From NCBI RefSeq assembly GCF_036588685.1, contig NC_086383.1:12276001-12340000 (forward strand): a stretch of 64,000 nucleotides of DNA, in the 5' to 3' direction. The notes below the pieces were generated by a model. The model had not been told where the DNA came from, made no database searches, and was given only the letters and a program-made list of their open reading frames with translations. Made by a program: the position numbers and the translations under genes. The stretch is from Mytilus trossulus. Taxonomy: Eukaryota. Positions 48,034 to 61,464 of this stretch are shown one piece after another (position 1 is the first letter of the stretch; every line of letters begins with the position of its first letter).

Positions 48034-51000
48034 AAACTTTGAATAATCAATAAGGTGTTTTTTTTAAGATTCTCTCAATTGATTTATGATTTTTGGGCAG
48101 TTGTATACTACTGTTGATTGTATATTGTTCGTATCCAATCCAATAGCATTACAAAGTTGTTTTTGTCCTTTTTCCGCAGATAGATATGGTTCTGTTTGAT
48201 GTTGAATGGTCCAAATTAAACGCAGTTTTTCGACATAACGTTGTAGTGTTCATATTTGTTTGAATTCATACAAATTTGTATTTTCAGATTTGTTGTAAAA
48301 ACTTAGGCAGTATGCTAGCAGAAGTTACATCAAGAAGTGAGATCGTATTTCTTAGGACAAATGCAAAAAAATATGGTGAAAGTATGTAACTGCTATTGAG
48401 TTTTTTTCTTTCAAATATTTAAATATCCAGTAAGGAGTCGTAAGGAACGTTTTTGTCGTGTGCAGGTTAAGTTTCAATTGTTTTAAAACTTCTTGAATCA
48501 TAATATGTTTATTAAAAGTGCATTATTGAACTCCAAGTATGATAAACGTTACTATAGATATACACACGAGAATCCAACAAGAGCATTGACTTCTAAAAAC
48601 ATTGTCGTAGATGTTCTCCTCGGTTTTAGTTGGTAACCCGGATTCGTTTTCCTTCGATCGATAAATGACTTCTGAAGAGCGGTATTGCCCTTTTTGTCGT
48701 GCGTGAGTTAATTCTCATATACTTTTAATTTTGTTGAATAATAATGTAACAATTTCGCTATAAGATAAAGAATAGTTATCTCCCTTGTCCTTATTTAATT
48801 TTGTTATTAGTTTAATATTTAAGTAAATTAAAGTTGTAATATATGATCTTTATAGGTTATCACTTTTTATAAATAGCCTTTAATTATCTTGGAAAAATTC
48901 GGAGTATAAATAAATATTTTTGAAGAAGGAAAAATATATGTTACCTTTGTATCGTAAATAATTAATTTATACATATCATTTAAGTTCAAATTATGGTTTG
49001 TCTTCAGACCAGTAGCTAATGTAAGGCTCACAATTAATATAGTATTCAGTTTTTACTGACACTAGGTTTGTCAAGGTAATAGACCAAAGATGTAGAAAAG
49101 TTATTTCTATAATTTTGAAAGTCCTTTCCTAAATACTACCACAGCGTGTTCTTTTACAGTCTTTAAAATTTAAAATATATTAAAGTATTTAATACAGTTC
49201 TAAATATAAACCAAAAGCTATAAATAAGAGGTCAAAACAAATACGGGTTATAAAACTTTAGGTCCACTCGAATACTCAAATTTATCTTGAAATGTAAGTA
49301 ATTGTTATACTACTCAGAATACTATTTTACTATTGTTAAACTTATAAACTGTTGAATTTAATTTACCTTTTAGACAATTTTACATTTGTTGATATTGTAT
49401 ACTGTTTTTGTTGCTTTACATCATGTTTATTTAATACAAATATAAACATCTTTATTATCTTTTTATCCTATTGCCATAGCTCAGTTCCCTGAGAAGAACT
49501 ATAAGAACTGAGATAGTCTAATGATCTCACTTGGCATCCATCGTCAACACATTATATAGATATCAGTATATTTGGTGTATAGAGTCAGATATCTCAGTTA
49601 TTAACACGACATAAACAACTAACTAGAGGGGACGGAAGAATCCAAGCCCGACCCTCCTGTTACAAAATTTGGTGGCCAATGTGGGGAACTGAGTTGAAAC
49701 CTTGGCAGTATTTAAAAGGTATCAAATAAGATAAAATTTAAATTAAGTAAGACAAAGAAATATTCTAAATGTCTTCTAAACAAGATATAGGGGCAACTGG
49801 AGGATTGTCGGTTAAAACAGATTCAAAACGAGATTCTGACTATTTACATAGACTTATTTCAAAGTATAGAGACAGTACTAGTCTTGACGAGGGTATGCTA
49901 GATGTAAGCGAAGAAGAAGTGAAATTTGATAAAGGAAAGATAACTCCTAGTAAAAAAAGTTACGAGTTATACGGCGGTGATAGTTTAGAGTATAATAGAA
50001 CACCTCGCGAAGATAAACAAGAAAGAAGCGTTCCACGGTTAAGAGACGAACGTGATAGATATGCATTACCGAGTTTGCACAGCAGAGATTTATTAACCAG
50101 AACTGAAGACGCAATAGGGTCGAAATCGTCGGTGTTCGGTTTAAGTAGAGGAAACGATTTCTATGAAAAACATAATTTAGACACGCGATATAATATGCGC
50201 CCGACAAGCGAAACTAGAGAGTTATCTGTTAAGACGAAAAAGGAAAATGAAAAAGGGTCTCCAGAATATTATCAAAAGTTAGTAAATGACTTGTCGACTA
50301 TTCAAAGAGAACTCTTCGGTACCGAAAACCCGCAAAGCAAATCAGATTATAGGTCTCCGAGGCAAACCTCTGAACGGAATTCAGAAACGTTAGAGAGGGC
50401 CGAAAATAAGACCATACAAACGACAATGCCGAATCCAAAAGTCAATGATCAATCAAATACTGTTGAAAGTAATGGCAAAACGGGTCGTACAAAGACACAA
50501 ATTACGAGACGCGAGAAAGAACCCGAAAAATTCGATGGAAAGTCTATTGACTGGAAGGACTACATAGTCCATTTTGAAAAGACCGCAACGTGGAATCAAT
50601 GGAACGAATGTGACAAAGCGCAACAATTGTCAATGAGTTTAAGAGGCTCAGCACAAAAACTGCTTGGTGATTTGCCACCGGAAGTAGTGAATGATTATGC
50701 AAACTTAAAAAGCACACTAGCACAGAGATTCAATCCGAAAGAGCGTGTTACAGCATACAGGTGCGAATTTAGAACCAGAACGCGAAAACCCGGAGAGTCT
50801 TTGCCAGATTTTGGGTATGCGTTGAGGCGATTAGTTAGATTAGCCTACCCGGAAGGAGAATATAATTCGGTCCTTGAACAACTAGTAATAAACCAATTTA
50901 TACTAGGTCTCGGAAATTTCGAAATGGAGAAACATGTGCAGTTTGCGCATCCTCAGACTTTACAAGCAGCAATAGCTTGCGCCGTCGAATATGATGCATT

Positions 51001-54000
51001 CACTAGTGCACAATTCAATCCTCGTAAACCGAAGGAAGTAGACAATTCTCCAGGTCTCCCAATAAGAACAATTAATAAAGATAAAAATGAATTAAGGGAA
51101 AATTCAAAAGTAGGAGAAGCTAAAGACAATAAAAGCCCAAATCCAGATTTAAATACATTAGCTAGTACACTGAATAGTTGTATAAAACAATTAACTGAGA
51201 AATTAGAAGATTTAGGTAAACAAAACCCCAAAGCTAAGATTAAATGCACCATATGTGGTAGAGAAAACCACACAGCAAGAGTTTGTTGGCATAGTGAAGA
51301 AAACCAGAGAAAAAGATCTTTTAATAGGAATAATAGACAAGGGCAAGACGATAAGACTAAGAATAAGCAAGGGGGAAACGATGATGAGGGAAACTAAATA
51401 GGGCTGAGGTTGAGGCCAAAGGTTCAGTCCAAAAGTTAACATTTGAAGAAGGGCCAAAAATTAGTATAAATTCAGTTACACAAAATTGTCTTTTCGTGAA
51501 AGTTACATTACAAAAACTCAGTTTTAAATTTTTACTGGACACTGGGTCAGCTGCTAGTATAATTGACAAGTCAGCATTTGATAAGTTAGGGATAGATACT
51601 TCATTACTGCAAAAAGTTTTAACAACTTTGACATCAGCAGAAGGAAGTCAAATGAAAATATATGGAAAAATTCCATTGAAGTTTAAATTAGGAAATAAAG
51701 TTTACACCCATGATTTTATAGTTGCTGATCTATACAATATGACAGGGTTGTTAGGAATGGATTTCTTTGAACAATATGAAGTAAACATGCAAATATCAAA
51801 TTTGACAATGACCATAGAAGGTTATAAAATTAAATTGTTCAAACAGCCATATAATTCATGTGCTAATGTAAAGATCAGTAAGCTAATGGTTATTCCCCCT
51901 GATAGTGAATATACAGTGGAGGCTTATATAAAAGGAAATGTAGAAAAAAAATTAACAATTCTAGAGCCTTATAAAAGTTTACAGAAGAGAGGGTTATTAG
52001 TGGCTAGGTCTGTGTATGATGCTTCATCGGAAGTCGTTCAAATAAATACTATAAACTTAACAGATGAAACTATAATCCTAGATAAAGATACTTTGGTAGG
52101 TAGGTTAGAACCAGTTAAGTCTATAAGTACGTTAAATGACATACAAATGGATTCAAATCTTGAAACAAACAAGAATGATAATATCCCTGAACATTTAAAG
52201 GTTATGATAGAAAAGGCATCGTTGGAATTAAAAAATGAGGAGAAATTAAAGTTTCAAAATTTGATACTTACATTTCAAGATATTTTTTTAGGGCCTGACT
52301 TAAAATTAGGTAGAACAGATCTTGTAAGTCATTCTATTGATACAAAAAATGCAAAGCCAGTTAAGATACCTCCGCGTAGGATACCAATATCTCAAAAACA
52401 GGTAGTCGAAAAAGGAATAGATCGTTTATTGGAAGCAGATCTTATAGAACCAAGCAATAGTCCGTGGTCCGCCCCAATTTTACTAGTTACTAAAAAGGAC
52501 GGAAGTATAAGATTCTGTGTTGATTATAGGGGACTTAACTCTGTAACTGTAAAAGATTCATATCCTTTACCTAGAATTGACACGTCATTAGATTCATTGG
52601 GTGGGAATAGGTGGTATCATACAGTTGATTTGGCTTCAGGATATTGGCAATGTCCCATGGAGCCTGACAGTAAAGCTAAAACAGCTTTTTCGTCACATAA
52701 AGGGCTTTTCCAATTCAAGGTATTGCCAATGGGATGGTGTAATTCAGCAGCAACGTTTGAAAGGTTAATGGAGTTAGTACTTAGGGGTTATCAATGGATT
52801 CGTTGTTTATGTTATTTGGATGATGTCATCATTTTTGGTCCAGATTTTGATTCTGCTTTAGAAAATCTACGATTAGTTTTTGAACGATTAAGGTCGGCAA
52901 ATCTTAAATTGAAACCAAGTAAATGTTCGTTTTTTCAGAAAGAAGTGTCATTTTTAGGGCATGTTGTGTCAGAGAAGGGTATAGGATGTGACAAAAGTAA
53001 GATTGATTCAGTTCAAAAGTGGCCAATACCAAGAACTATGACAGAAATCAGAAGCTTTTTGGGATTAGCAGGGTACTATCGAAAATTTATTCCAAATTTT
53101 TCTGAGGTTGCCTCCCCATTGACCAGGCTTACAAAAAAGGCTGTAAAATTTCAGTGGGATACTAGTTGTCAAAATGCTTTTGAAAAATTGAAAGAATCAC
53201 TTGTTTCAGCTCCTATATTAGCATATCCCGAAGGGGAAGGGGAATTTATACTAGATACAGATGCCAGTGGCAGTGGGATAGGCGCTGTGTTGTCACAATT
53301 TCAGAATGGAGAAGAGAAGGTCATATCATATGCTAGCAAAACATTAAATGATGCGCAAAGAAAGTATTGTACAACAAGGCGAGAGTTATTGGCAGTAGTT
53401 ATGTTCGTGAAGTATTTTCGTCATTTTCTTTGGGGTAGGCATTTCAAAATTAGAACGGATCACGCCTCCCTAGTATGGTTGAAAAATTTTAAGGACCCTG
53501 AAAGTATTTTGGCACGTTGGCTAACTGTCCTAGATACATATGATTTTACTTTAGAACACAGAAAGGGAAGTCTGCATACAAATGCAGATAGTCTTTCCAG
53601 AAAGCCACATAGACAGTGTCAAAGGTTGGATTGTCCAGATTGTACTAATAATAGTGTTGTGAAGATAAGTAAGAGTGTTGACTCGACTTATTCACCTTCT
53701 AAACGGATTTTACAGTCCGACCAGGAGAAAACACAAAAATTAAAACAATCAGAAAAATGCGGTAAAGTCTTGGCATTACAAGAAACAAATGATGGATCGA
53801 ATTGGTTAAAAAACTGGTCAACTGAGGAAATGATTAAATTGCAAAAAGAAGATGTAAGCATCGGGAAAATTTTGGAGTTAAAGACAGCATTTGAAAACAA
53901 ACCCCCTAAAATTGAAGTAGAGGGACAGGCTTATGGGTGTCGAGTATTATGGAGTCTCTGGGAATCATTGTTTGTGAGAGAAAATTTGTTATATCAAAAG

Positions 54001-57000
54001 GTTGAAACTGAAAAGAAAAATGAACCACAAATAGTTTTAGTAGCCCCGAAAGAAGTAAGATCTGAAGTTTTCAAAGAGTTACATTGTAAAAGAACGGCTG
54101 GTCATTTGGGTAGGGACAAAACTCTTCAGTCAGTAAAGAGGCGATTTTTTTGGCCTGGAATGAGTAAGGATATTGCTTCCTGGTGTAAGGAGTGTGATCA
54201 ATGTGCTAGAGGTAAACCTGGTCCCGGTTTAGGGAGAGCACCTCTCCAACAATCAGCTGTTGGATCTCCTTTTGACAGGATAGGTGTTGACATAATGGGG
54301 CCTTGTCCTGTTACAAAAGACGGAAATGAGTATATAATTGTCCTGTCAGACTATTTTACTAAATGGGTTGAGGCATTTTCAGTTGTAAATCATACGGCTT
54401 TAACTGTTGCGGATAAGTTAGTTACAGAGGTTATGTGTAGATTTGGGGTCCCGACCAGTATTCATTCAGATCAGGGTAGAGAATTTGAATCAGATCTTTT
54501 CAAATATGTATGTCAACTTCTTGAAATAGAGAAAACTAGAACTGCCCCTTATAGACCAAATTCAGATGGGTTAGTAGAAAGGATGAATCGAACACTTAAA
54601 CAAATGCTTTCAATTTTTGTAAATGAAAATAGAAACGATTGGGATGACCATTTACCGTTTTTGCTAATGGCCTATAGAGCGACAATACACGATAGCACAG
54701 GTTATTCTCCGTTTTATATGATGTTTGGTAGAGATATGATGTGTCCCATAGATGTCGTTACAGGGAATTCGCCCGACGAAATAAATGCAAATTGTCCAGT
54801 TCAATATGTAGAATGGCTTAAATGTACTTTAGAACACACATATTCCTTTGCAACGAAATACTTGTCACGTGCTGCATCTAGACAAAAGAAAAACTATGAT
54901 CGGGGTGTAAAACCCCGTAGATTAGTAGAAGGCGATTTTGTTTGGAGGTGGTATCCCCCGTTTGCTAATGTTAAATTTGGCCTTGGGTGGACAGGTCCGT
55001 ACAAAATTGAAAAGAAAATCTCAGAGGTATCATATAGGATAAGAAAGAGTCCCAAGTCTAAGACTCTAGTAGTCCATATAGATCACTTAAAACCGCGGAT
55101 CGGAAGGGATACGCCAGAAGCTTGGCAACATGAATTGCCAATAGAAATTGAAAACGATCAGTTGAATGTTGCTTTAGATCAGACTATTGAAAGTGATGTA
55201 ATTGAAAATGAAAGTGTTGATGAAATCCCGGTAGATGATATGGAATTTGAAATTGAAAGTAGGGAAGATGAAATAAATACAGGTTATGCTTCTGATATCA
55301 TGATCACTCCTGAAGTTAAAAGAACACGTTGTGGTCGTGCAGTTAAAGAGCCCATGAAATACTCCCCCTAGATAATTACAGTTGTACATAGCGTTTATCA
55401 ATTCTATATTTTATCATATTTTATTATTGTTACCTTCATGAAGTAGAGTATAAAAGTTTGGGAATACAATTTTAGTACCAAATCTTTAATTTGACTGACT
55501 GCGAAGATAACATACATTCTGTAGAATTGATAATAGAATTTATGAGACTAGATTTTCAATATAAATGAAATGTTAGTGTTGTAAATATTTGTAAATATTT
55601 GTAATTCATATATGTATTTTGTCTTAGTAAGGGTAAATTAGGAAGAAGGAAATTAATCAGTTACATATTAAAGATATGCTTTATTAAAATAAGTGTGTGT
55701 ACGTGTGTGTAGATCTGTGGTCTGAATGCATTTGATAGTAGGGGTTATAATTTTAGCTTCCGAAAATGAATGAGATAAGAATAAAACATGATAAACATAT
55801 GTTGCTATGGAATATGTTTAAAATTAATATTATATATCAAACGCTAGATATCAAATTATTGATGTAAACATCACTTCCGAAATTTATAGTAGGGGTGTAT
55901 GGTTTAGCAAGAGATTATAATAAATAAAAAAATGATAAATAATAAAGAAAATCATGCATGATTACGAATTAAATATATATATAAAAAAAAAAAAGAGAGC
56001 ACTGAATAAATGTTATATTTTAACTTAAATGGAACTTCCGAAGATTTATTAGGGGTTACCAGTTTATTTCATGTGTTCTTAGATTGATATTTGAGTTAGA
56101 GATGTTAATATTTTTAGCAACATATGACAAAATATTTAGTTCAGTCAGCAAAATACAGGACTTGGGAATAATGTGAAATACACAAATGAGTACCGGTACC
56201 TGAGTTGGCTTGAGTTATTTATTCTGTATATAAATATCTTTTAGACAGATCGTTATGCATACACGTACATACATACATACACACATATAATTCAATACAG
56301 AAACAAAAATATTTTTCAGACATTACTCATAATGGCTGAAGCAGACGAAATGATGTCAATGATAATAATGGAAGATAGAGAAATACTTCGTCTAGATGAT
56401 GATTTGAGAGAAACATTTCCACAAAATGGCATGCATTGTGATGTAACCGGGTGTAACACCGTACTTCTCCAGAACTACTCACGTTATATAAAACATTGGA
56501 AACTTGTACATTTAGAAAATATTCCTATGTATAAATGTACTATGTGCAACAGAAAATTTAAATACAGATGTGAACTAGGCCGACATTATAGAACGAGCCA
56601 CCTTTTAGAGAAAGATATTGCGGCAGAACGTACTGCAACAGTTAACTCTATTTCATGTACTAATAAGAGATTTATAAATCCTAAGGGGAAACTACCTAGA
56701 AAGAAATTTATATAATATTTAATATTGTATTTTACCTTTTTCAGCATGTCTGATATTTCAGTAGCCAAATTTGTTATACCTTCAGAGGAAGAAATTCCAG
56801 AGTATTGGCCGGACGAAGGAATGTCCTGTGAGGTAAAGGGGTGTGAAACCCCTGTTATAAAGAGCATAGGGATGTATTGTAAACACTGGCTCCGTTTTCA
56901 TACAAAGAAAACCTCTATAATTGTATGCCGTCTCTGTCAGAGGAAGTTAGGAAGAAGATGTTACCTTCTTCAGCATTTGAGGGACCATCATAAGCTGGAT

Positions 57001-58888
57001 ATTAAAGCTCGCACAGAAGAAGTGATGAACACTATCCCTAGGCTGGTAGATAATATGAATTATATTGACCCCGGTAGGATAATTAAGCGAGTTTTAAGAC
57101 CTAAGGTAAACGAAAAGGCAAGGGAAGCAGCTAAGAAGGAAAGACGGATTCTTAGCGAGCGTATAAATAAGAAGGAACTATTTCCAAACCTACATGGCGC
57201 TGTTATCGTACCCAGAGACCATGAAGCATATATTTTCCAGATGCCGAATATGAAGGGAGGGCAGGTATTACAGTTGAAAAAGAAACCCGGATGGTAAAAG
57301 ACATTTTGGACTTTTATTGTTTTAGACATTTTGCAATTTATTTAGACTTTAAAAAAAAAAAAAAAAAAAAAAAACAATTATAGATTAAAAAAAAATATAT
57401 ATATATATAAAGATATAAGGAAAGTTGTTAATTATATGCATTTATTACATTTCACATGTTTAAATATTAGCTAAATTGTTGAAAATTAAATATATATGTT
57501 TATCAAGAATAATGTATATTTTTCATATAAATTGATTCTTAGGGGGGAGGAATGTAACAATTTCGCTATAAGATAAAGAATAGTTATCTCCCTTGTCCTT
57601 ATTTAATTTTGTTATTAGTTTAATATTTAAGTAAATTAAAGTTGTAATATATGATCTTTATAGGTTATCACTTTTTATAAATAGCCTTTAATTATCTTGG
57701 AAAAATTCGGAGTATAAATAAATATTTTTGAAGAAGGAAAAATATATGTTACCTTTGTATCGTAAATAATTAATTTATACATATCATTTAAGTTCAAATT
57801 ATGGTTTGTCTTCAGACCAGTAGCTAATGTAAGGCTCACAATTAATATAGTATTCAGTTTTTACTGACACTAGGTTTGTCAAGGTAATAGACCAAAGATG
57901 TAGAAAAGTTATTTCTATAATTTTGAAAGTCCTTTCCTAAATACTACCACAGCGTGTTCTTTTACAGTCTTTAAAATTTAAAATATATTAAAGTATTTAA
58001 TACAGTTCTAAATATAAACCAAAAGCTATAAATAAGAGGTCAAAACAAATACGGGTTATAAAACTTTAGGTCCACTCGAATACTCAAATTTATCTTGAAA
58101 TGTAAGTAATTGTTATACTACTCAGAATACTATTTTACTATTGTTAAACTTATAAACTGTTGAATTTAATTTACCTTTTAGACAATTTTACATTTGTTGA
58201 TATTGTATACTGTTTTTGTTGCTTTACATCATGTTTATTTAATACAAATATAAACATCTTTATTATCTTTTTATCCTATTGCCATAGCTCAGTTCCCTGA
58301 GAAGAACTATAAGAACTGAGATAGTCTAATGATCTCACTTGGCATCCATCGTCAACACATTATATAGATATCAGTATATTTGGTGTATAGAGTCAGATAT
58401 CTCAGTTATTAACACGACATAAACAACTAACTAGAGGGGACGGAAGAATCCAAGCCCGACCCTCCTGTTACAATAATATGTGAAAGTGCTTTCTTGAATT
58501 CCACGTATGATAAGCGTTACTATATATATACAAACGAGTGCACAACAAGAGCTTCGTAAAATCATTGACAAACGCAAAATAAATAGTTTCAGCCGTCATT
58601 TAACATGTTTAATATTTTGTTATCAAATGTTTGACAGATTTTTGGCTAGGTGGATCAGATCGAGCTAATGAAGGTGTGTGGTTATGGACAACAAGTGGAC
58701 AGGGTTTTACAGTAACCGATTGGCATACACGTATTGCACACCAACCAAATAATCAGAATGGAGATGAACATTGTCTGAACATTTATAAAAGACAGGACTA
58801 CGAATGGAATGATGGACCATGTTCAAGAAGTTTAAGGTTCATATGCGAAAAACCGTTAGTATATTTTAATGGTTATATTTTTAAATAA
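35861..58888 (+). CDS. Paralogue B: type II membrane protein, long Tyr-motif tail-TM-EGF repeats-C-type lectin; partly decayed, possibly a pseudogene
   Basis: Join 35861-36368, 44214-44321, 45103-45210, 45718-45825, 46760-46867, 47488-47576, 48288-48381, 58638-58888 gives 1374 nt open (457 aa), but only if two stop-containing EGF exons are skipped. The last intron holds the Gypsy element. Confidence 0.6.
36862..36940 (+). pseudogene. Short fourth copy of the start of the tail exon
   Basis: GATTGGAATAGAATAAAACATGTATGTGATGG..TCATGTTCTAACCTTGATGG matches 4702-4760 and 35837-35905. Confidence 0.65.
37245..37640 (+). mobile_element. Penelope-like retroelement 3' fragment
   Basis: YSRACISYHDFLDRGLRLTSKLLNQEFQKVKLKSSLR..; same family as 18508-19010. 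Confidence 0.6.
39815..40238 (+). mobile_element. Full ~350-nt retrozyme-like monomer bounded by two hammerhead motifs
   Basis: AAACGCGCGT occurs at 39841 and 40191 (350 nt apart), each followed by similar flank. The second motif (40164-40207) keeps CTGATGA but has G12>A; the first has lost CTGATGA. Confidence 0.75.
42718..42825 (+). pseudogene. Paralogue B dead EGF exon (counterpart of 9978-10085)
   Basis: Cys>Trp change, in-frame TGA at 42801, and the donor changed from GT to AT. Confidence 0.88.
43671..43778 (+). pseudogene. Paralogue B EGF exon with a nonsense codon
   Basis: [35 protein letters not shown]; TAG at 43715; both splice sites intact. Confidence 0.88.
44214..44321 (+). CDS. 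Paralogue B EGF exon
   Basis: 108 nt; TPCNNSPCSNGGECTTASSSFVCTCPSGYSENQCQ. Confidence 0.85.
45103..45210 (+). CDS. Paralogue B EGF exon with an ambiguous TAGAG acceptor
   Basis: [36 protein letters not shown]. It stays in frame only with the second AG (45101-45102). Confidence 0.75.
45718..45825 (+). CDS. Paralogue B EGF exon
   Basis: 108 nt; [35 protein letters not shown]. Confidence 0.85.
46760..46867 (+). CDS. Paralogue B last EGF exon
   Basis: 108 nt; [35 protein letters not shown]. Confidence 0.85.
47488..47576 (+). CDS. Paralogue B C-type lectin exon 1
   Basis: RPACPSGWKMNENGYYYFSILRANWDYAK; 89 nt as in A, but the Cys of CYYF is replaced by Tyr. Confidence 0.88.
47964..48027. repeat. 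(CT)n microsatellite
   Basis: Direct reading. Confidence 0.98.
48288..48381 (+). CDS. Paralogue B C-type lectin exon 2
   Basis: ICCKNLGSMLAEVTSRSEIVFLRTNAKKYGE|GTATGT; 94 nt as in A. Confidence 0.88.
48745..49664 (+). repeat. 5' LTR
   Basis: TGTAACA...TGTTACA, with terminal inverted TGTAACA; candidate TATA box TATAAATA at 49219. Confidence 0.97.
49670..49687 (+). promoter_or_regulatory. Primer binding site (tRNA-Ile(AAU)-like; tRNA-Lys(CUU) not excluded)
   Basis: TGGTGGCCAATGTGGGGA lies 5 nt after the LTR end. The tRNA identity comes from recalled tRNA 3' ends and needs checking. Confidence 0.75.
49769..51397 (+). CDS. gag: Gag polyprotein (542 aa)
   Basis: Capsid-like region (PEKFDGK..WKDYIVHFE...LRGSA, RKPGESLPDF) and a CCHC knuckle CTICGRENHTARVC. 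Confidence 0.95.
   Translation: MSSKQDIGATGGLSVKTDSKRDSDYLHRLISKYRDSTSLDEGMLDVSEEEVKFDKGKITPSKKSYELYGGDSLEYNRTPREDKQERSVPRLRDERDRYALPSLHSRDLLTRTEDAIGSKSSVFGLSRGNDFYEKHNLDTRYNMRPTSETRELSVKTKKENEKGSPEYYQKLVNDLSTIQRELFGTENPQSKSDYRSPRQTSERNSETLERAENKTIQTTMPNPKVNDQSNTVESNGKTGRTKTQITRREKEPEKFDGKSIDWKDYIVHFEKTATWNQWNECDKAQQLSMSLRGSAQKLLGDLPPEVVNDYANLKSTLAQRFNPKERVTAYRCEFRTRTRKPGESLPDFGYALRRLVRLAYPEGEYNSVLEQLVINQFILGLGNFEMEKHVQFAHPQTLQAAIACAVEYDAFTSAQFNPRKPKEVDNSPGLPIRTINKDKNELRENSKVGEAKDNKSPNPDLNTLASTLNSCIKQLTEKLEDLGKQNPKAKIKCTICGRENHTARVCWHSEENQRKRSFNRNNRQGQDDKTKNKQGGNDDEGN
51388..51430 (+). promoter_or_regulatory. -1 ribosomal frameshift signal (gag-pol)
   Basis: In-frame G GGA AAC heptamer (51388-51394) directly before the gag TAA, a 6-nt spacer, then the stem GGGCTGAG...TTCAGTCC. 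The -1 frame is open into pol. Confidence 0.88.
51394..55371 (+). CDS. pol: Pol polyprotein (protease, RT, RNase H, integrase), entered by -1 frameshift
   Basis: LLDTGS protease, YLDD RT, LDTDAS/RRELLAVV/RTDH RNase H, H..GH..C..C plus DDE integrase. The frame is open upstream of the track's GTG start (51496) back to the slip site. Confidence 0.97.
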   Translation, partial: LNRAEVEAKGSVQKLTFEEGPKISINSVTQNCLFVKVTLQKLSFKFLLDTGSAASIIDKSAFDKLGIDTSLLQKVLTTLTSAEGSQMKIYGKIPLKFKLGNKVYTHDFIVADLYNMTGLLGMDFFEQYEVNMQISNLTMTIEGYKIKLFKQPYNSCANVKISKLMVIPPDSEYTVEAYIKGNVEKKLTILEPYKSLQKRGLLVARSVYDASSEVVQINTINLTDETIILDKDTLVGRLEPVKSISTLNDIQMDSNLETNKNDNIPEHLKVMIEKASLELKNEEKLKFQNLILTFQDIFLGPDLKLGRTDLVSHSIDTKNAKPVKIPPRRIPISQKQVVEKGIDRLLEADLIEPSNSPWSAPILLVTKKDGSIRFCVDYRGLNSVTVKDSYPLPRIDTSLDSLGGNRWYHTVDLASGYWQCPMEPDSKAKTAFSSHKGLFQFKVLPMGWCNSAATFERLMELVLRGYQWIRCLCYLDDVIIFGPDFDSALENLRLVFERLRSANLKLKPSKCSFFQKEVSFLGHVVSEKGIGCDKSKIDSVQKWPIPRTMTEIRSFLGLAGYYRKFIPNFSEVASPLTRLTKKAVKFQWDTSCQNAFEKLKESLVSAPILAYPEGEGEFILDTDASGSGIGAVLSQFQNGEEKVISYASKTLNDAQRKYCTTRRELLAVVMFVKYFRHFLWGRHFKIRTDHASLVWLKNFKDPESILARWLTVLDTYDFTLEHRKGSLHTNADSLSRKPHRQCQRLDCPDCTNNSVVKISKSVDSTYSPSKRILQSDQEKTQKLKQSEKCGKVLALQETNDGSNWLKNWSTEEMIKLQKEDVSIGKILELKTAFENKPPKIEVEGQAYGCRVLWSLWESLFVRENLLYQKVETEKKNEPQIVLVAPKEVRSEVFKELHCKRTAGHLGRDKTLQSVKRRFFWPGMSKDIASWCKECDQCARGKPGPGLGRAPLQQSAVGSPFDRIGVDIMGPCPVTKDGNEYIIVLSDYFTKWVEAFSVVNHTALTVADKLVTEVMCRFGVPTSIHSDQGREFESDLFKYVCQLLEIEKTRTAPYRPNSDGLVERMNRTLKQMLSIFVNENRNDWDDHLPFLLMAYRATIHDSTGYSPFYMMFGRDMMCPIDVVTGNSPDEINANCPVQYVEWLKCTLEHTYSFATKYLSRAASRQKKNYDRGVKPRRLVEGDFVWRWYPPFANVKFGLGWTGPYKIEKKISEVSYRIRKSPKSKTLVVHIDHLKPRIGRDTPEAWQHELPIEIENDQLNVALDQTIESDVIENESVDEIPVDDMEFEIESREDEINTGYASDIMITPEVKRTRCGRAVKEPMKYSP
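56332..56715 (+). CDS. Accessory ORF3: double C2H2-type zinc-finger protein (127 aa)
   Basis: C-x4-C-x13-H-x4-H followed by C-x2-C-x12-H-x4-H. ATG is in good context (ATAATGG), 12 nt after the acceptor TTTTTCAG (56319). Confidence 0.85.
   Translation: MAEADEMMSMIIMEDREILRLDDDLRETFPQNGMHCDVTGCNTVLLQNYSRYIKHWKLVHLENIPMYKCTMCNRKFKYRCELGRHYRTSHLLEKDIAAERTATVNSISCTNKRFINPKGKLPRKKFI
56746..57297 (+). CDS. Accessory ORF4: paralogous double C2H2-type zinc-finger protein with a basic tail (183 aa)
   Basis: Same finger spacing as ORF3. The ATG follows the acceptor TTTTACCTTTTTCAG|C (56744). The C-terminus is K/R-rich. Confidence 0.85.
   Translation: MSDISVAKFVIPSEEEIPEYWPDEGMSCEVKGCETPVIKSIGMYCKHWLRFHTKKTSIIVCRLCQRKLGRRCYLLQHLRDHHKLDIKARTEEVMNTIPRLVDNMNYIDPGRIIKRVLRPKVNEKAREAAKKERRILSERINKKELFPNLHGAVIVPRDHEAYIFQMPNMKGGQVLQLKKKPGW
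57541..57552 (+). promoter_or_regulatory. Polypurine tract
   Basis: AGGGGGGAGGAA directly before the 3' LTR. Confidence 0.93.
57553..58472 (+). repeat. 3' LTR
   Basis: Same length as the 5' LTR; no difference noticed by eye. Confidence 0.97.
58638..58888 (+). CDS. Paralogue B C-type lectin exon 3 (terminal)
   Basis: CAG|..FWLGGSDRANEGVWLW...QPNN...HCL...WNDGPC....FICEK. Confidence 0.93.
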
Positions 58889-59499
58889 CATTGGTTTTAT
58901 TTCACTGATAAAGAATTACATTTAAAAATCTAGAAAATATGTAAGTATTAAATTTACAATTTTTTTCTAAAGACAGTTTACATACAAGATATTACACTTA
59001 ATGTGAACAATTAAAATTTACAAACTGCTTGCAATGAAATCTTCAAAACTGTGTTTCATGTGGGCTTAATTTGTTACTCTGTATTGATTTGAGTTTGTAG
59101 TAACTGATCCTCGGAAGAGTAATGTCATCCTTGTACTATGCTATTCACAGACTTGTTCATAGTTAAGTTCTGATGATTAAGATTTGTGCAGAAATAAAAG
59201 TGTTCCAATAAAATATTGTTCTGTTGTGGCTGCTTTTATAATTAGGTATTTACAATTGAACTGGGCAAAAGTATCAGAAATATTCGAAAGCTAAATGATA
59301 AGTATTATTTTTCTGTATTTATGGTATATAAAGCTACAAATAAGCCAATGCAGTCTCTTTTTGGTACCGTTTTCAAAAAGAGACTGCGAAAACTATTTCA
59401 ATTATTTGATTGAACAGACATTTGTCAATTGCTTCATGCCTATTACAGTGTTACTTTAATTTCAGATTGAATTGAGTTGAATATTGAAGCAAGAACAGA

Positions 59500-60430
59500 C
59501 AACAGGAAGGGATACCTGTCATTGTAAATATAAGATGGGGAGTGATACTTGTGACTGCAAAAATAAAGACCGGAAGTGATACTTGCAATTGCAAAAATAT
59601 GACCAGAAGGTGTTACGTGATACTGCAAAAAATAGACCAGAAATGATACTTATTACTGTGAATATAAGATTGGAATTGATACTTGTTACTGTAAATATTA
59701 AATTTAAGGCGGGAAGGGATACTTCATTCGTCAAAAATATGATTGGAAGTGATACTTGTCACTGTAAATATTGAATTTAAAGCGGGAAGGGATACTTATT
59801 TCTGTTTATATTAGACAGAAAGTGATACTTGTTACTGTAAAAATAGGACCGAAAGATAAACTTGTTATAATTGTAAATATAAGACCAGAAGTAATATAGG
59901 GTTATTGCATGAATATTGGGGAATATTGTCCCGAGTAGAACTGTATATTGCACGAGCTTGCGAGTGCAATACATGTTCTACGAGGGACAATATTCCCCAA
60001 TATTCATGCAATAACCCTTTTATTGTATAGCAATATAATATTTGAAAGTAAAAAATTGTTTAAACTAAGATTTGTCGTTGATGACGTCATGAATTTTGAA
60101 GATTTATTGCACTAGTGCAATATAAGAATTTATTGCATGCTAACTTTTGGTTACTTTCTGTGGGGAATATTATATTGCTATACAATAATACTTGTTACAA
60201 TTGTAAAAATAAGACCGGAAGTGATACTTCATTCGTCAAAAATATGATTGGAAGTGATACTTATTATTGTAAATATAAGGTGGAAATTGATAAAGAAAAA
60301 TCTTGAATTGATACTTGTTACTGTGAATATCAAAACTTAGGTGACAAGAGTCACCTTTTGCTGTTAATATTGGACGGCTATTGAAACTTGTAACTGTTAA
60401 TATTAGATTGCAAGGATACTTGATACAATA
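59500..60430. repeat. Degenerate ~40-bp tandem repeat interrupted by a palindromic element
   Basis: Recurrent GGAAGTGATACTTGTTACTGTAAATATAAGACC-like units. Confidence 0.75.
59898..60188. mobile_element. Double-palindrome non-autonomous element (possibly Crypton-like)
   Basis: Arms AGGGTTATTGCATGAATATTGGGGAATATTGTCCC / GGGACAATATTCCCCAATATTCATGCAATAACCCT, a second pair TATTGTATAGCAATATAAT / ATTATATTGCTATACAATA, and an internal TGACGTCA. Confidence 0.65.
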
Positions 60431-60592: not shown

Positions 60593-61464
60593 GTCTAACC
60601 TTACCGGAAAGCTCAAACGAACGCCTAACGGATAACTTTTTTTCAATCCGTTTATGTCCGTTAGACAACCGTTGTTATTCATTAGACGTCCGTTGTTATC
60701 CGTTATACGTCCGTCCATATCCGTTGCATGTCCGTTAAGCGCACGTTTTATCCGTCGACGTCCGTTCTGTCCCCTGGAAATTTTGAGCATGTTCAAAACT
60801 TTGAATGGACGTCCAACGGATAAAACGTCCGTTGAACATCCGTTAGGCGTCCGTTTTGTACGGTACCCGTCCGTTTCGTTTCCGTTTTGTATCCGTAACG
60901 TGTCCGTTATACATCCATTGGAGGTCTGTAAGATCAATTCACCAACGGACTTCTTCCGGACGTTAAACGGATAAAAAGGATGTTGAACGAATGAGAAACG
61001 AACTTCTACCGGACGTATCACGGATAAAACGGATGATGAACGGATCTTAAAAGGATAAATGCCAATTGAAAATGTCGCGTCAGAAAGGCCAATTATTGGT
61101 ATGTCAGATTTCTTAAGGTTTATGAATTCTTATTATTCATAATCGACCTTAGAGTAAATGCGATTCTTCACAATCAAGTAGCTCTTATTCAGGTCAGACA
61201 CTGACCTTTTGTGGTATTTTGAAGAATAAACCAAAACCAGTTACACCTTAACATTTTGAATATTTATGAAATGTACATGTATTATTATTGTCGGCTTTAA
61301 ATTGTTCATCCGTTTCATCTTGTACGCTTCCGTTAGGTGTCCGTTGTATGCGGTACTCTTCCGTTCGACGTACGTTCGACATCCGTTCTGTCTGGTACGT
61401 ATCCGTTTCTCATACGTTGCACATCCGTTAGTCGTCCGTTCGTGCTATCTGGCAAGGTGTGACC
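60593..61464. mobile_element. Non-autonomous TIR element rich in TCCGTT/AACGGA, inserted into a SINE-like repeat
   Basis: Imperfect ~40-bp TIRs (ACCTTACCGGAAAGC..CTAACGGAT / ATCCGTTAG..GCTATCTGGCAAGGT). The upstream host repeat 60448-60490 also occurs at 35417-35458. Confidence 0.6.

What the first reader, a model, noticed from the sequence alone, without database searches (positions are those of the whole stretch)
56305..56748. Each accessory ORF has its own 3' splice acceptor just before its ATG
Seen: ATTTTTCAG|ACATTACTCATAATGG precedes ORF3 and TTTTACCTTTTTCAG|CATG precedes ORF4. The 30-nt gap between the ORFs is essentially just an acceptor signal. Candidate donors lie upstream of gag (AAG|GTATCA at 49719, TAA|GTAAGA at 49747, or GTAAGT at 49294 in the LTR). 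Inference: alternative acceptors generate two subgenomic mRNAs, a complex-retrovirus-like expression scheme.
Basis: partly seen in the sequence, partly recalled or inferred. Interest (0 to 1): 0.7.

Follow-up and report, generated by a model that had tools for sequence, protein, structure and literature searches.

The report
Mussel retrotransposon zinc-finger splice acceptors
A mussel jumping gene carries two extra zinc-finger genes at its tail, each with a splice-acceptor signal just before its start codon that recurs in six distantly related families of the element, so these genes are likely read from separately spliced messages, much as complex retroviruses express their regulatory genes.

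Summary
The window holds a young Ty3/Gypsy LTR retrotransposon (48745-58472, identical 920-nt LTRs) of a Mytilus-type mussel. After pol lie two paralogous two-finger C2H2 ORFs (127 and 183 aa), with TTTCAG ending 12 nt and 1 nt before their ATGs. Five other families in this genome (Pol 46-60% identical) carry the same kind of ORF; 8 of 8 intact ORFs have TTNYAG within 12 nt of the ATG, against 6% of other ATGs and 0 of 5 gag ATGs. Mixed phases point to a non-coding first exon. The donor is not settled: the best candidate is GTAAGT at 49294 in the LTR, but it is no better than chance. RNA data are thin and mixed: 0 of 8 runs show an LTR- or leader-to-acceptor junction, 3 carry unspliced RNA, and one contig switches to foreign sequence exactly at 56745. 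Best model (0.62): alternative acceptors on one 5' leader exon give two subgenomic mRNAs; main rival: internal promoter plus short intron. Repeated, covarying stem-loops upstream of the first acceptor suggest a possible Rev-like circuit. Spliced 3' ORFs are known in Gypsy elements; this zinc-finger cassette was not found in the papers searched.

The parts
48745..49664 (+). 5' LTR, 920 nt, TG...CA, identical to the 3' LTR; 4-nt target-site duplication ATAA (48741-48744, 58473-58476)
   Evidence: (0 mismatches in 920)
49219..49226 (+). TATA-like box in the LTR, one of five such motifs; inferred promoter
   Evidence: function untested
49294..49299 (+). Candidate splice donor AAT|GTAAGT, best-scoring donor upstream of the acceptors; 75 nt after the TATA-like box; the exon before it has no ATG
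   Evidence: 16% of shuffled LTRs score as high; GTAAGT in 12 of 15 LTR loci, GTAATT in 3 older ones
49670..49686 (+). Primer-binding-site-like TGGTGGCCAATGTGGGG after the 5' LTR (likeness to a tRNA-Lys PBS is recalled, not tested)
49719..49752 (+).
   Evidence: 4 ATGs upstream of them from 49245
49769..51397 (+). gag, 542 aa, weak capsid and zinc-knuckle matches
51388..55371 (+). pol (PR-RT-RH-IN) in the -1 frame; slippery GGGAAAC at 51388-51394 and a hairpin at 51401-51430 suggest -1 frameshifting
   Evidence: best solved relative Ty3 RT, E 1e-93
55842..55911 (+). Spacer repeat unit predicted to fold as a stem-loop; second unit 56003-56071; partial third core at 55757; also in family B
56003..56071 (+). 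Second spacer stem-loop unit, upstream of acceptor 1
56311..56319 (+). 3' splice acceptor 1, ATTTTTCAG (short T-tract; previous AG 19 nt upstream); first exon base 56320
   Evidence: kept in 3 of 3 copies that retain the region; use in RNA not seen
56332..56715 (+). ORF3, 127 aa, two C2H2-type fingers plus N-x-x-Y/F-x-x-P motif
56730..56744 (+). 3' splice acceptor 2, TTTTACCTTTTTCAG (previous AG 41 nt upstream); first exon base 56745
   Evidence: CAG kept in 9 of 9 distinct copies; one RNA contig leaves the element exactly here
56746..57297 (+). ORF4, 183 aa, paralog of ORF3 (32% identity) with a basic helix and C-terminal tail
57541..57552 (+). Polypurine tract AGGGGGGAGGAA
57553..58472 (+). 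3' LTR

Best explanation
The element is a Gypsy LTR retrotransposon with two zinc-finger genes after pol, each preceded by a conserved 3' splice-acceptor motif, and these acceptors are likely joined, one or the other, to a short non-coding first exon from the 5' LTR, which would remove gag-pol and give one subgenomic mRNA per gene. Shown: the element, the two ORFs, their paralogy and protein-level constraint, the acceptor motifs and their recurrence in six families. Hinted by one contig: use of acceptor 2 in RNA. Inferred: the donor (most likely GTAAGT at 49294, leaving an ATG-free exon of about 50 nt), the use of acceptor 1, and the role of the proteins as nucleic-acid-binding regulators acting in trans. 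The two-acceptor layout most likely arose when the gene was duplicated together with its acceptor, since families C-F have one ORF and one acceptor.
For: 8 of 8 intact accessory ORFs in six families have TTNYAG ending 1-12 nt before the ATG; background 10 of 163, gag 0 of 5. The families are distant (Pol 46-60% identical; synonymous sites saturated between A and B, pS 0.78), so the motif is kept by selection. A decayed seventh family, found after the rule was set, has a 17-nt pyrimidine run and TAG at the same place, although it misses the TTNYAG pattern and has no ATG there. AG-to-ATG distances are 12, 1, 9, 9, 1, 1, 2, 2 nt, i.e. all three phases, which fits a non-coding upstream exon and not a fusion to Gag or Pol. 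The proteins are constrained: 8 Cys/His invariant at 22-43% identity; ORF4 dN 0.07 versus dS 0.36 against an older copy. Unspliced RNA is a poor template: 26 ATGs lie between pol and ORF3, and 23 between 56002 and ORF4. In run X4 a 624-nt contig fits 56745-57085 and carries 283 nt foreign to the element directly before 56745 (side inferred from record coordinates, a reading that matches two other records whose loose ends are listed). In 5 of 6 families the top donor score of LTR plus leader lies in the LTR (in B it lies inside gag), above shuffles for C (11 of 300) and D (4 of 300).
Against: 0 of 8 runs show a joint from the LTR or leader to either acceptor. Contigs of X1 and X3 cross both acceptors unspliced and X5 crosses acceptor 2 unspliced. 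The X4 partner sequence does not lie on the element, so it shows at most that the acceptor works with an outside exon; it is one contig at depth 4.86, its letters were not shown, and it comes from a copy 3.5% diverged. X6 breaks 8 nt upstream of the acceptor, which splicing does not explain. Donor 49294 is matched by 16% of shuffles, three older copies read GTAATT there, and family B has no good LTR donor. Acceptor 1 fails the pyrimidine-tract rule. The TTNYAG rule is post hoc. A young copy with 99.9% identical LTRs and open gag and pol has lost ORF3 with its acceptor and the ORF4 start, so the genes are not needed in cis.
Confidence: 0.62

Rival explanations
1. An internal promoter in the 960-nt spacer drives a 2-kb RNA, and a short intron from a nearby donor selects ORF3 or ORF4 (foamy-virus-like two-promoter layout). 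The acceptors are real, but the first exon is local.
For: Contigs of X1 and X3 start at 56002 and 55983, just after a TATATATATAAAA tract, run into the 3' LTR, and these runs show no gag-pol cover. Spacer donors exist in families B, C and E (scores 6.1, 4.3, 5.3). The spacer repeats could be DNA enhancer sites.
Against: No usable donor between 55983 and 56319 (best score -0.2) and none good in the D and F spacers. The contig starts coincide with an A-run that breaks assemblies, and contigs cannot show an RNA start. X5 has pieces across gag, pol and the spacer. The repeats covary as paired RNA.
Confidence: 0.2
2. The ORFs are read from unspliced subgenomic or genomic RNA (internal initiation or reinitiation) and the AG motifs are inherited relics or part of a translation signal.
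For: Every element-only contig that crosses an acceptor is unspliced (X1, X3, X5). Structured repeats lie upstream of ORF3.
Against: A splice-acceptor-shaped motif is kept at 8 of 8 ORFs in otherwise unalignable DNA. 8 ATGs lie between 56002 and ORF3. The X5 contig is A-to-G hyper-edited, as expected of retained double-stranded RNA and not of mRNA (interpretation from general knowledge of ADAR). X4 leaves the element exactly at acceptor 2.
Confidence: 0.08
3. A donor inside gag or pol, or inside ORF3, is spliced to the acceptors to give fusion proteins (as with Cer1 CERV, which shares exons with gag), or ORF3 and ORF4 form one gene.
For: gag-pol holds donors of similar score (up to 4.9). The 12 nt before the ORF3 ATG are an open frame. 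A database gene model joins the start of ORF3 to ORF4 (P0003; a prediction only).
Against: Phases differ among families and an ATG is kept right after the AG in 8 of 8. The best donor inside ORF3 scores -1.0. Homologues mostly start with Met about 30 residues before the first Cys.
Confidence: 0.06
4. The AG-ATG sites are spliced-leader trans-splicing acceptors that resolve a polycistronic RNA.
For: TTTCAG directly before ATG and a 30-nt gap resemble operon layouts (recalled from nematodes). The X4 partner sequence is not on the element.
Against: The X4 partner is 283 nt, far longer than spliced leaders (recalled, 16-50 nt). A search for spliced leader, trans-splicing, mollusc and bivalve listed 5 papers, all on Perkinsus or dinoflagellates (listing only).
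Confidence: 0.02

Closest known systems
Spliced env or env-like 3' ORFs of retroviruses and Gypsy elements, e.g. barley Bagy2 (PMC7264820, passages read; Drosophila gypsy env splicing is recalled)
   Same: An ORF between pol and the 3' LTR in sense orientation, expressed through a splice that removes gag-pol (inferred here).
   Different: The products are small two-finger C2H2 proteins with no Env match; there are two of them, each with its own acceptor; the donor may lie in the LTR.
CERV of C. elegans Cer1 (PMC10309623; abstract, sections 6 and 15 and passages read)
   Same: A Gypsy-type LTR element with a non-Env regulatory protein made from a spliced mRNA, TTTCAG acceptors conserved across relatives, and a Cys-rich putative RNA-binding part; required for export of unspliced RNA.
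   Different: CERV is 517 aa, five exons, shares exons with gag and is stated to have no homologue outside nematodes; here the ORFs are single-exon coding units with their own ATG, of a different (C2H2) fold, and no function is tested.
Foamy viruses (PMC3694450, passages read)
   Same: Major splice donor inside the LTR R region, upstream of the poly(A) signal, as predicted here for 49294; accessory genes near the 3' LTR.
   Different: Foamy viruses are enveloped retroviruses with a proven second promoter in env and the Tas transactivator; this element has no env, its RT is closest to Ty3 among solved structures, and neither donor nor internal promoter is shown.
sORF2 of Drosophila MDG1-group elements (bioRxiv 10.1101/2025.03.14.642691, passages read)
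   Same: Small accessory ORFs in env-less Gypsy elements, sometimes downstream of pol.
   Different: sORF2 is a FAST-like membrane protein, mostly upstream of gag; the mussel ORFs are zinc-finger proteins.
Tandem classical C2H2 zinc fingers, e.g. PDB 2drp two-finger peptide
   Same: Model has two beta-beta-alpha fingers (pLDDT above 90 for residues 21-110); best Foldseek match 2drp, prob 0.99, rmsd 3.0.
   Different: E-value only 0.028; Pfam zf-C2H2 below its cut-off; extra conserved W-P-x-x-G-M, H-W and N-x-x-Y/F-x-x-P motifs define a separate family.

Membership tests
Ty3/Gypsy LTR retrotransposon (Metaviridae) | Two direct LTRs TG...CA with target-site duplication, PBS and PPT | tested here: met
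Ty3/Gypsy LTR retrotransposon (Metaviridae) | pol order PR-RT-RH-IN and RT closest to Ty3 | tested here: met
Named mollusc Gypsy clade (C-clade, MolGy etc., PMC6238403) | RT/RNase H tree placement with reference elements | not testable with these tools
   No reference elements available; only an in-genome tree of six families was built
Env-bearing Gypsy element (errantivirus-like) | 3' ORF encodes a membrane glycoprotein | tested here: not met
   ORF3/ORF4 match zinc fingers only; no Env match
Complex-retrovirus-like expression (several spliced subgenomic mRNAs from one leader exon) | Conserved acceptor before each accessory ORF | tested here: met
   8 of 8; 6 of 8 under the pyrimidine rule
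Complex-retrovirus-like expression (several spliced subgenomic mRNAs from one leader exon) | Junction from a 5' donor to each acceptor seen in RNA | tested here: inconclusive
   0 of 8 runs; one contig leaves the element at 56745 with outside sequence; seven runs are contigs that drop rare forms, the raw-read run had 4 reads
Rev/RRE- or CERV-like export system | Structured RNA element present only in unspliced RNA | tested here: inconclusive
   Repeated stem-loop upstream of acceptor 1 with 10 of 19 pairs changed on both sides (2 of 500 shuffles), but single units fold no better than shuffles and it was found only in families A and B
Rev/RRE- or CERV-like export system | Accessory protein binds the element and is needed for export of unspliced RNA | not testable with these tools
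   Needs binding and localisation experiments
C2H2 zinc-finger proteins | Two C-x2/4-C...H-x4-H motifs folding as beta-beta-alpha | tested here: met
   8 invariant ligands; model and weak structural match; Pfam scores below cut-off

The most novel reading that the evidence does not exclude
A bivalve-wide Gypsy lineage has evolved its own Rev/RRE-like circuit: zinc-finger proteins made from alternatively spliced subgenomic mRNAs bind repeated stem-loops that lie inside the gag-pol intron, and so license only the unspliced genome for export or packaging, also for deleted non-autonomous copies in trans.
Probability: 0.2. Interest if true: 0.8.

Novelty: new variant of a known kind. Interest (0 to 1): 0.56.

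Why it matters
Env-less LTR retrotransposons are usually drawn as gag-pol only. Here an old, currently mobile lineage in mussels keeps a zinc-finger accessory gene with its own splice acceptor, duplicated in two families, and homologous short proteins occur in oyster and scallop annotations where they are filed as host genes of unknown function. If the spliced mRNAs are confirmed, this is a second animal case, beside nematode CERV, of a Gypsy element with a retrovirus-like regulatory gene, with a different protein fold and a testable candidate RNA target. The acceptors also explain why gene predictors fuse these ORFs to host exons.

Tried and rejected
No RNA holder was on record as RNA in the run search (kinds are guesses). 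Raw-read run X24 gave 4 reads, none on the ORFs; X2 showed nothing on the element although indexed as a holder; missing gag-pol cover in contigs proves nothing. Spliced retrocopies in the genome: none among the copies seen; every family A copy that covers the ORF4 start keeps the acceptor. DNA context for unnamed homologues: metagenome scans with P0136 and P0057 and a viral-contig scan with ORF4 found no relative, so LTR context outside this genome is untested. Donor scoring used approximate, recalled metazoan base frequencies, not a mussel model; significant only for families C and D. A tree of the accessory proteins was unresolved (0 of 5 branches supported). Atlas search: recognition below threshold, top hits unnamed. 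Foldseek against viral models: nothing at E below 0.001. Rfam: 0 matches in 48700-58500. N-terminally over-extended homologue predictions read acceptor-compatible residues before the family start in 9 of 13, but no null was computed, so this is only a hint. The exon joined to the flanking lectin-like exon in X2/X3 is not in the window. The LTR pairing picked wrong matches and was redone. Earlier scan notes: none by sequence or words, two unrelated LINE notes by place. Paper searches listed no description of this cassette; PMC6238403 has 0 occurrences of 'ORF' or 'splic' in its main text; PMC3383448 passages added nothing. No supplements were read and Repbase could not be seen; either may annotate these ORFs.

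Full report
The element. The finding lies in a Ty3/Gypsy LTR retrotransposon at 48745-58472. Its two 920-nt LTRs have 0 mismatches, it is flanked by a 4-nt duplication (ATAA), and it has a PBS-like site at 49670 and a PPT at 57541-57552. gag (49769-51397) is followed by pol in the -1 frame (open from 51388, PR-RT-RH-IN); the closest solved RT is Ty3. The closest named homologues of ORF4 are Mytilus proteins, so the host is a mussel.

The observation. Acceptor 1 ends at 56319, 12 nt before the ORF3 ATG; acceptor 2 ends at 56744, 1 nt before the ORF4 ATG; the gap between the ORFs is 30 nt. TTTTCAG occurs twice in the 2181 nt after pol, at these two places, and not on the other strand.

The ORFs. 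ORF3 (127 aa) and ORF4 (183 aa) are paralogs (32% identity, E 5e-19) with two C2H2-type fingers. Pfam matches are below cut-off. An AlphaFold model built on 8 sequences is confident over residues 21-110 and its best match is a two-finger peptide (2drp, prob 0.99, E 0.028); no viral match reached E 0.001. ORF4 is under purifying selection against an older copy (dN 0.07, dS 0.36).

Conservation of the acceptors. A search of this genome with ORF4 gave 63 matches. Of 17 stretches fetched, the informative ones fall into five more Gypsy families (B L031, C L034, D L038, E L041, F L043), with Pol 46-60% identical to each other. B has two accessory ORFs like this element; C-F have one. All 8 intact ORFs have TTNYAG ending 12, 1, 9, 9, 1, 1, 2 and 2 nt before the ATG; the same pattern precedes 10 of 163 ATGs in sense non-coding parts of these elements, 3 of 185 on the other strand, 55 of 1316 on the window's + strand, and 0 of 5 gag ATGs. 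This rule was set after seeing the sites. The rule tried first (YAG plus at least 8 of 12 pyrimidines) passed 6 of 8 against 9 of 163 and failed both ORF3 sites; thresholds 7 to 10 were all run and at 9 only 2 of 8 passed. One passing site per family in six of six families is far beyond a 5-6% background under either rule. A decayed seventh family has a long pyrimidine run and TAG at the same place but no ATG. Within family A the ORF4 CAG is kept in 9 of 9 distinct copies and the ORF3 site in 3 of 3 that retain it, while 2 copies have lost it by deletion; this is weak evidence, as the copies are 80-90% alike. Because all three phases occur and an ATG follows each AG, the upstream exon is most likely non-coding.

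Range. A search of 1.84 billion representatives gave 126 hits. Of 86 short proteins examined (two of them cluster mates added), 59 match the whole two-finger core, mostly with Met about 30 residues before the first Cys. Of 20 proteins looked up, named ones come from Mytilus, Crassostrea angulata, Mizuhopecten, Argopecten and Sinanodonta. Their genomic context could not be fetched, so 'bivalve-wide retrotransposon gene' is inferred.

The donor. Scored with recalled generic frequencies, the best donor upstream of the acceptors is AAT|GTAAGT at 49294 in the LTR, 75 nt after a TATA-like box, with no ATG in 49245-49293; the two leader donors score lower and would carry 4 ATGs. Family E has the same TATA-to-donor spacing (76 nt). 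But 16% of shuffled LTRs score as well, 3 of 15 LTR loci read GTAATT, family B has no good LTR donor, and only C and D beat shuffles. ORF3 has no usable donor (best -1.0), which argues against ORF3 and ORF4 being one gene. Sequence alone does not fix the donor.

RNA. The run search listed 24 runs, none of the holders on record as RNA; 8 were laid. No run shows a joint from the LTR or leader to 56320 or 56745. X1 (56002-57986) and X3 (55983-56810) cross both acceptors unspliced and show no gag-pol cover; X5 crosses acceptor 2 unspliced with dense A-to-G changes and also has pieces over gag and pol. In X4 one 624-nt contig (depth 4.86, 12 differences) fits 56745-57085 with record positions 1-341 on the minus strand, so 283 foreign letters sit directly before 56745, the predicted first exon base; the same reading of coordinates matches the listed loose ends of X5 record 18 and X3 record 19. 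Its letters were among rows not shown, so a GT donor could not be checked, and the partner is not on the element. X6 breaks at 56737, unexplained. X2, X12 and the raw-read run X24 were uninformative for the acceptors. Contigs drop rare forms, so absence of the junction is weak evidence; the net result is one hint that acceptor 2 works and no evidence on the donor.

A candidate target. The spacer of families A and B holds three CTTC(C/T)GAA cores each (0 of 2000 shuffles reach three), within ~70-nt units. Eleven units share a predicted stem-loop in which 10 of 19 pairs change on both sides (2 of 500 shuffles; slid controls 0-1). The units stem from about four lineages, single units fold no better than shuffles, the core was not found in C-F, and Rfam has no match. 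They lie upstream of acceptor 1 and so would be present only in unspliced RNA. A deleted but recently moved copy keeps this spacer, and a young full-length copy has lost both accessory genes, which fits cis-acting RNA elements and trans-acting, or dispensable, proteins.

Mechanism and odds. Best: a short LTR exon spliced to either acceptor gives two subgenomic mRNAs (0.62). Rivals: internal promoter with a short intron (0.20), unspliced translation (0.08), fusion to gag/pol or ORF3-ORF4 (0.06), trans-splicing (0.02). That the acceptors are functional at all is about 0.88.

What is known. Spliced 3' ORFs are described for env-like genes such as Bagy2 (PMC7264820, passages). Cer1 CERV is a spliced regulatory protein needed for export of unspliced RNA (PMC10309623, abstract, sections 6 and 15, passages). 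Foamy viruses have the major donor in the R region and a second promoter (PMC3694450, passages). sORF2 elements carry small membrane proteins (10.1101/2025.03.14.642691, passages). Six searches listed no paper on a C2H2 accessory cassette in bivalve Gypsy elements, and the main mollusc survey does not mention ORFs or splicing in its text (PMC6238403, passages). Supplements and Repbase were not seen. Verdict: a new variant of a known kind; interest 0.56.

Noticed in passing
window 55842-55911, 56003-56071 (core also at 55757); L006:2620-2822: Repeated ~70-nt units in the pol-ORF3 spacer of families A and B with a shared predicted three-way stem-loop; 10 of 19 pairs change on both sides (2 of 500 shuffles), from only about four lineages; single units fold no better than shuffles; no Rfam match.
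   Followed up: partly
L053/L054/L097 (G000:C6 about 30.83 Mb): A young family A copy (LTRs 99.9% identical, gag and pol open) lacks ORF3 with its acceptor and has a broken ORF4, so it moved without its own accessory genes.
   Followed up: partly
L020/L051/L052 (G000:C12 about 32.46 Mb): A ~4-kb deleted derivative with 99.8% identical LTRs keeps scraps of gag and pol and the spacer with its repeat; contigs of X4 and X5 show joints of the same kind.
   Followed up: partly
L094:5244-10000: A family F derivative that has lost most of gag and nearly all of pol but keeps the spacer, acceptor and zinc-finger ORF between LTR copies identical over the 1311 nt compared.
   Followed up: partly
window 56776-56872 (run X5): Dense A-to-G changes on the sense strand in one contig, and many T-to-C changes elsewhere in the run, suggest RNA hyper-editing of transcripts from both strands.
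   Followed up: no
P0015, P0016, P0017, P0018: Very long proteins (1970-4729 aa, one from the freshwater mussel Sinanodonta) carry 10-21 matches to the same two-finger domain: a possible host source or domesticated array.
   Followed up: no
window 51388-51430: Slippery GGGAAAC at the gag end followed by a hairpin; pol opens in the -1 frame there.
   Followed up: partly
leaders of L034, L038, L041, L043 and window 49670: The six families use at least four different primer-binding-site sequences; tRNA assignments not tested.
   Followed up: no
window 58639-58830: An exon that looks like a C-type lectin domain (by eye) 170 nt after the 3' LTR; contigs of X2 and X3 switch to another sequence at the AG before 58639.
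   Followed up: no
window 56737 (run X6): A contig carries 11 unrelated letters directly before 56737, 8 nt upstream of acceptor 2; unexplained.
   Followed up: partly
window 59487-60403, 59898-60018, 60718-61057: Short tandem-like repeats (33-73 nt spacing) and two inverted repeats downstream of the element, probably other mobile elements.
   Followed up: no
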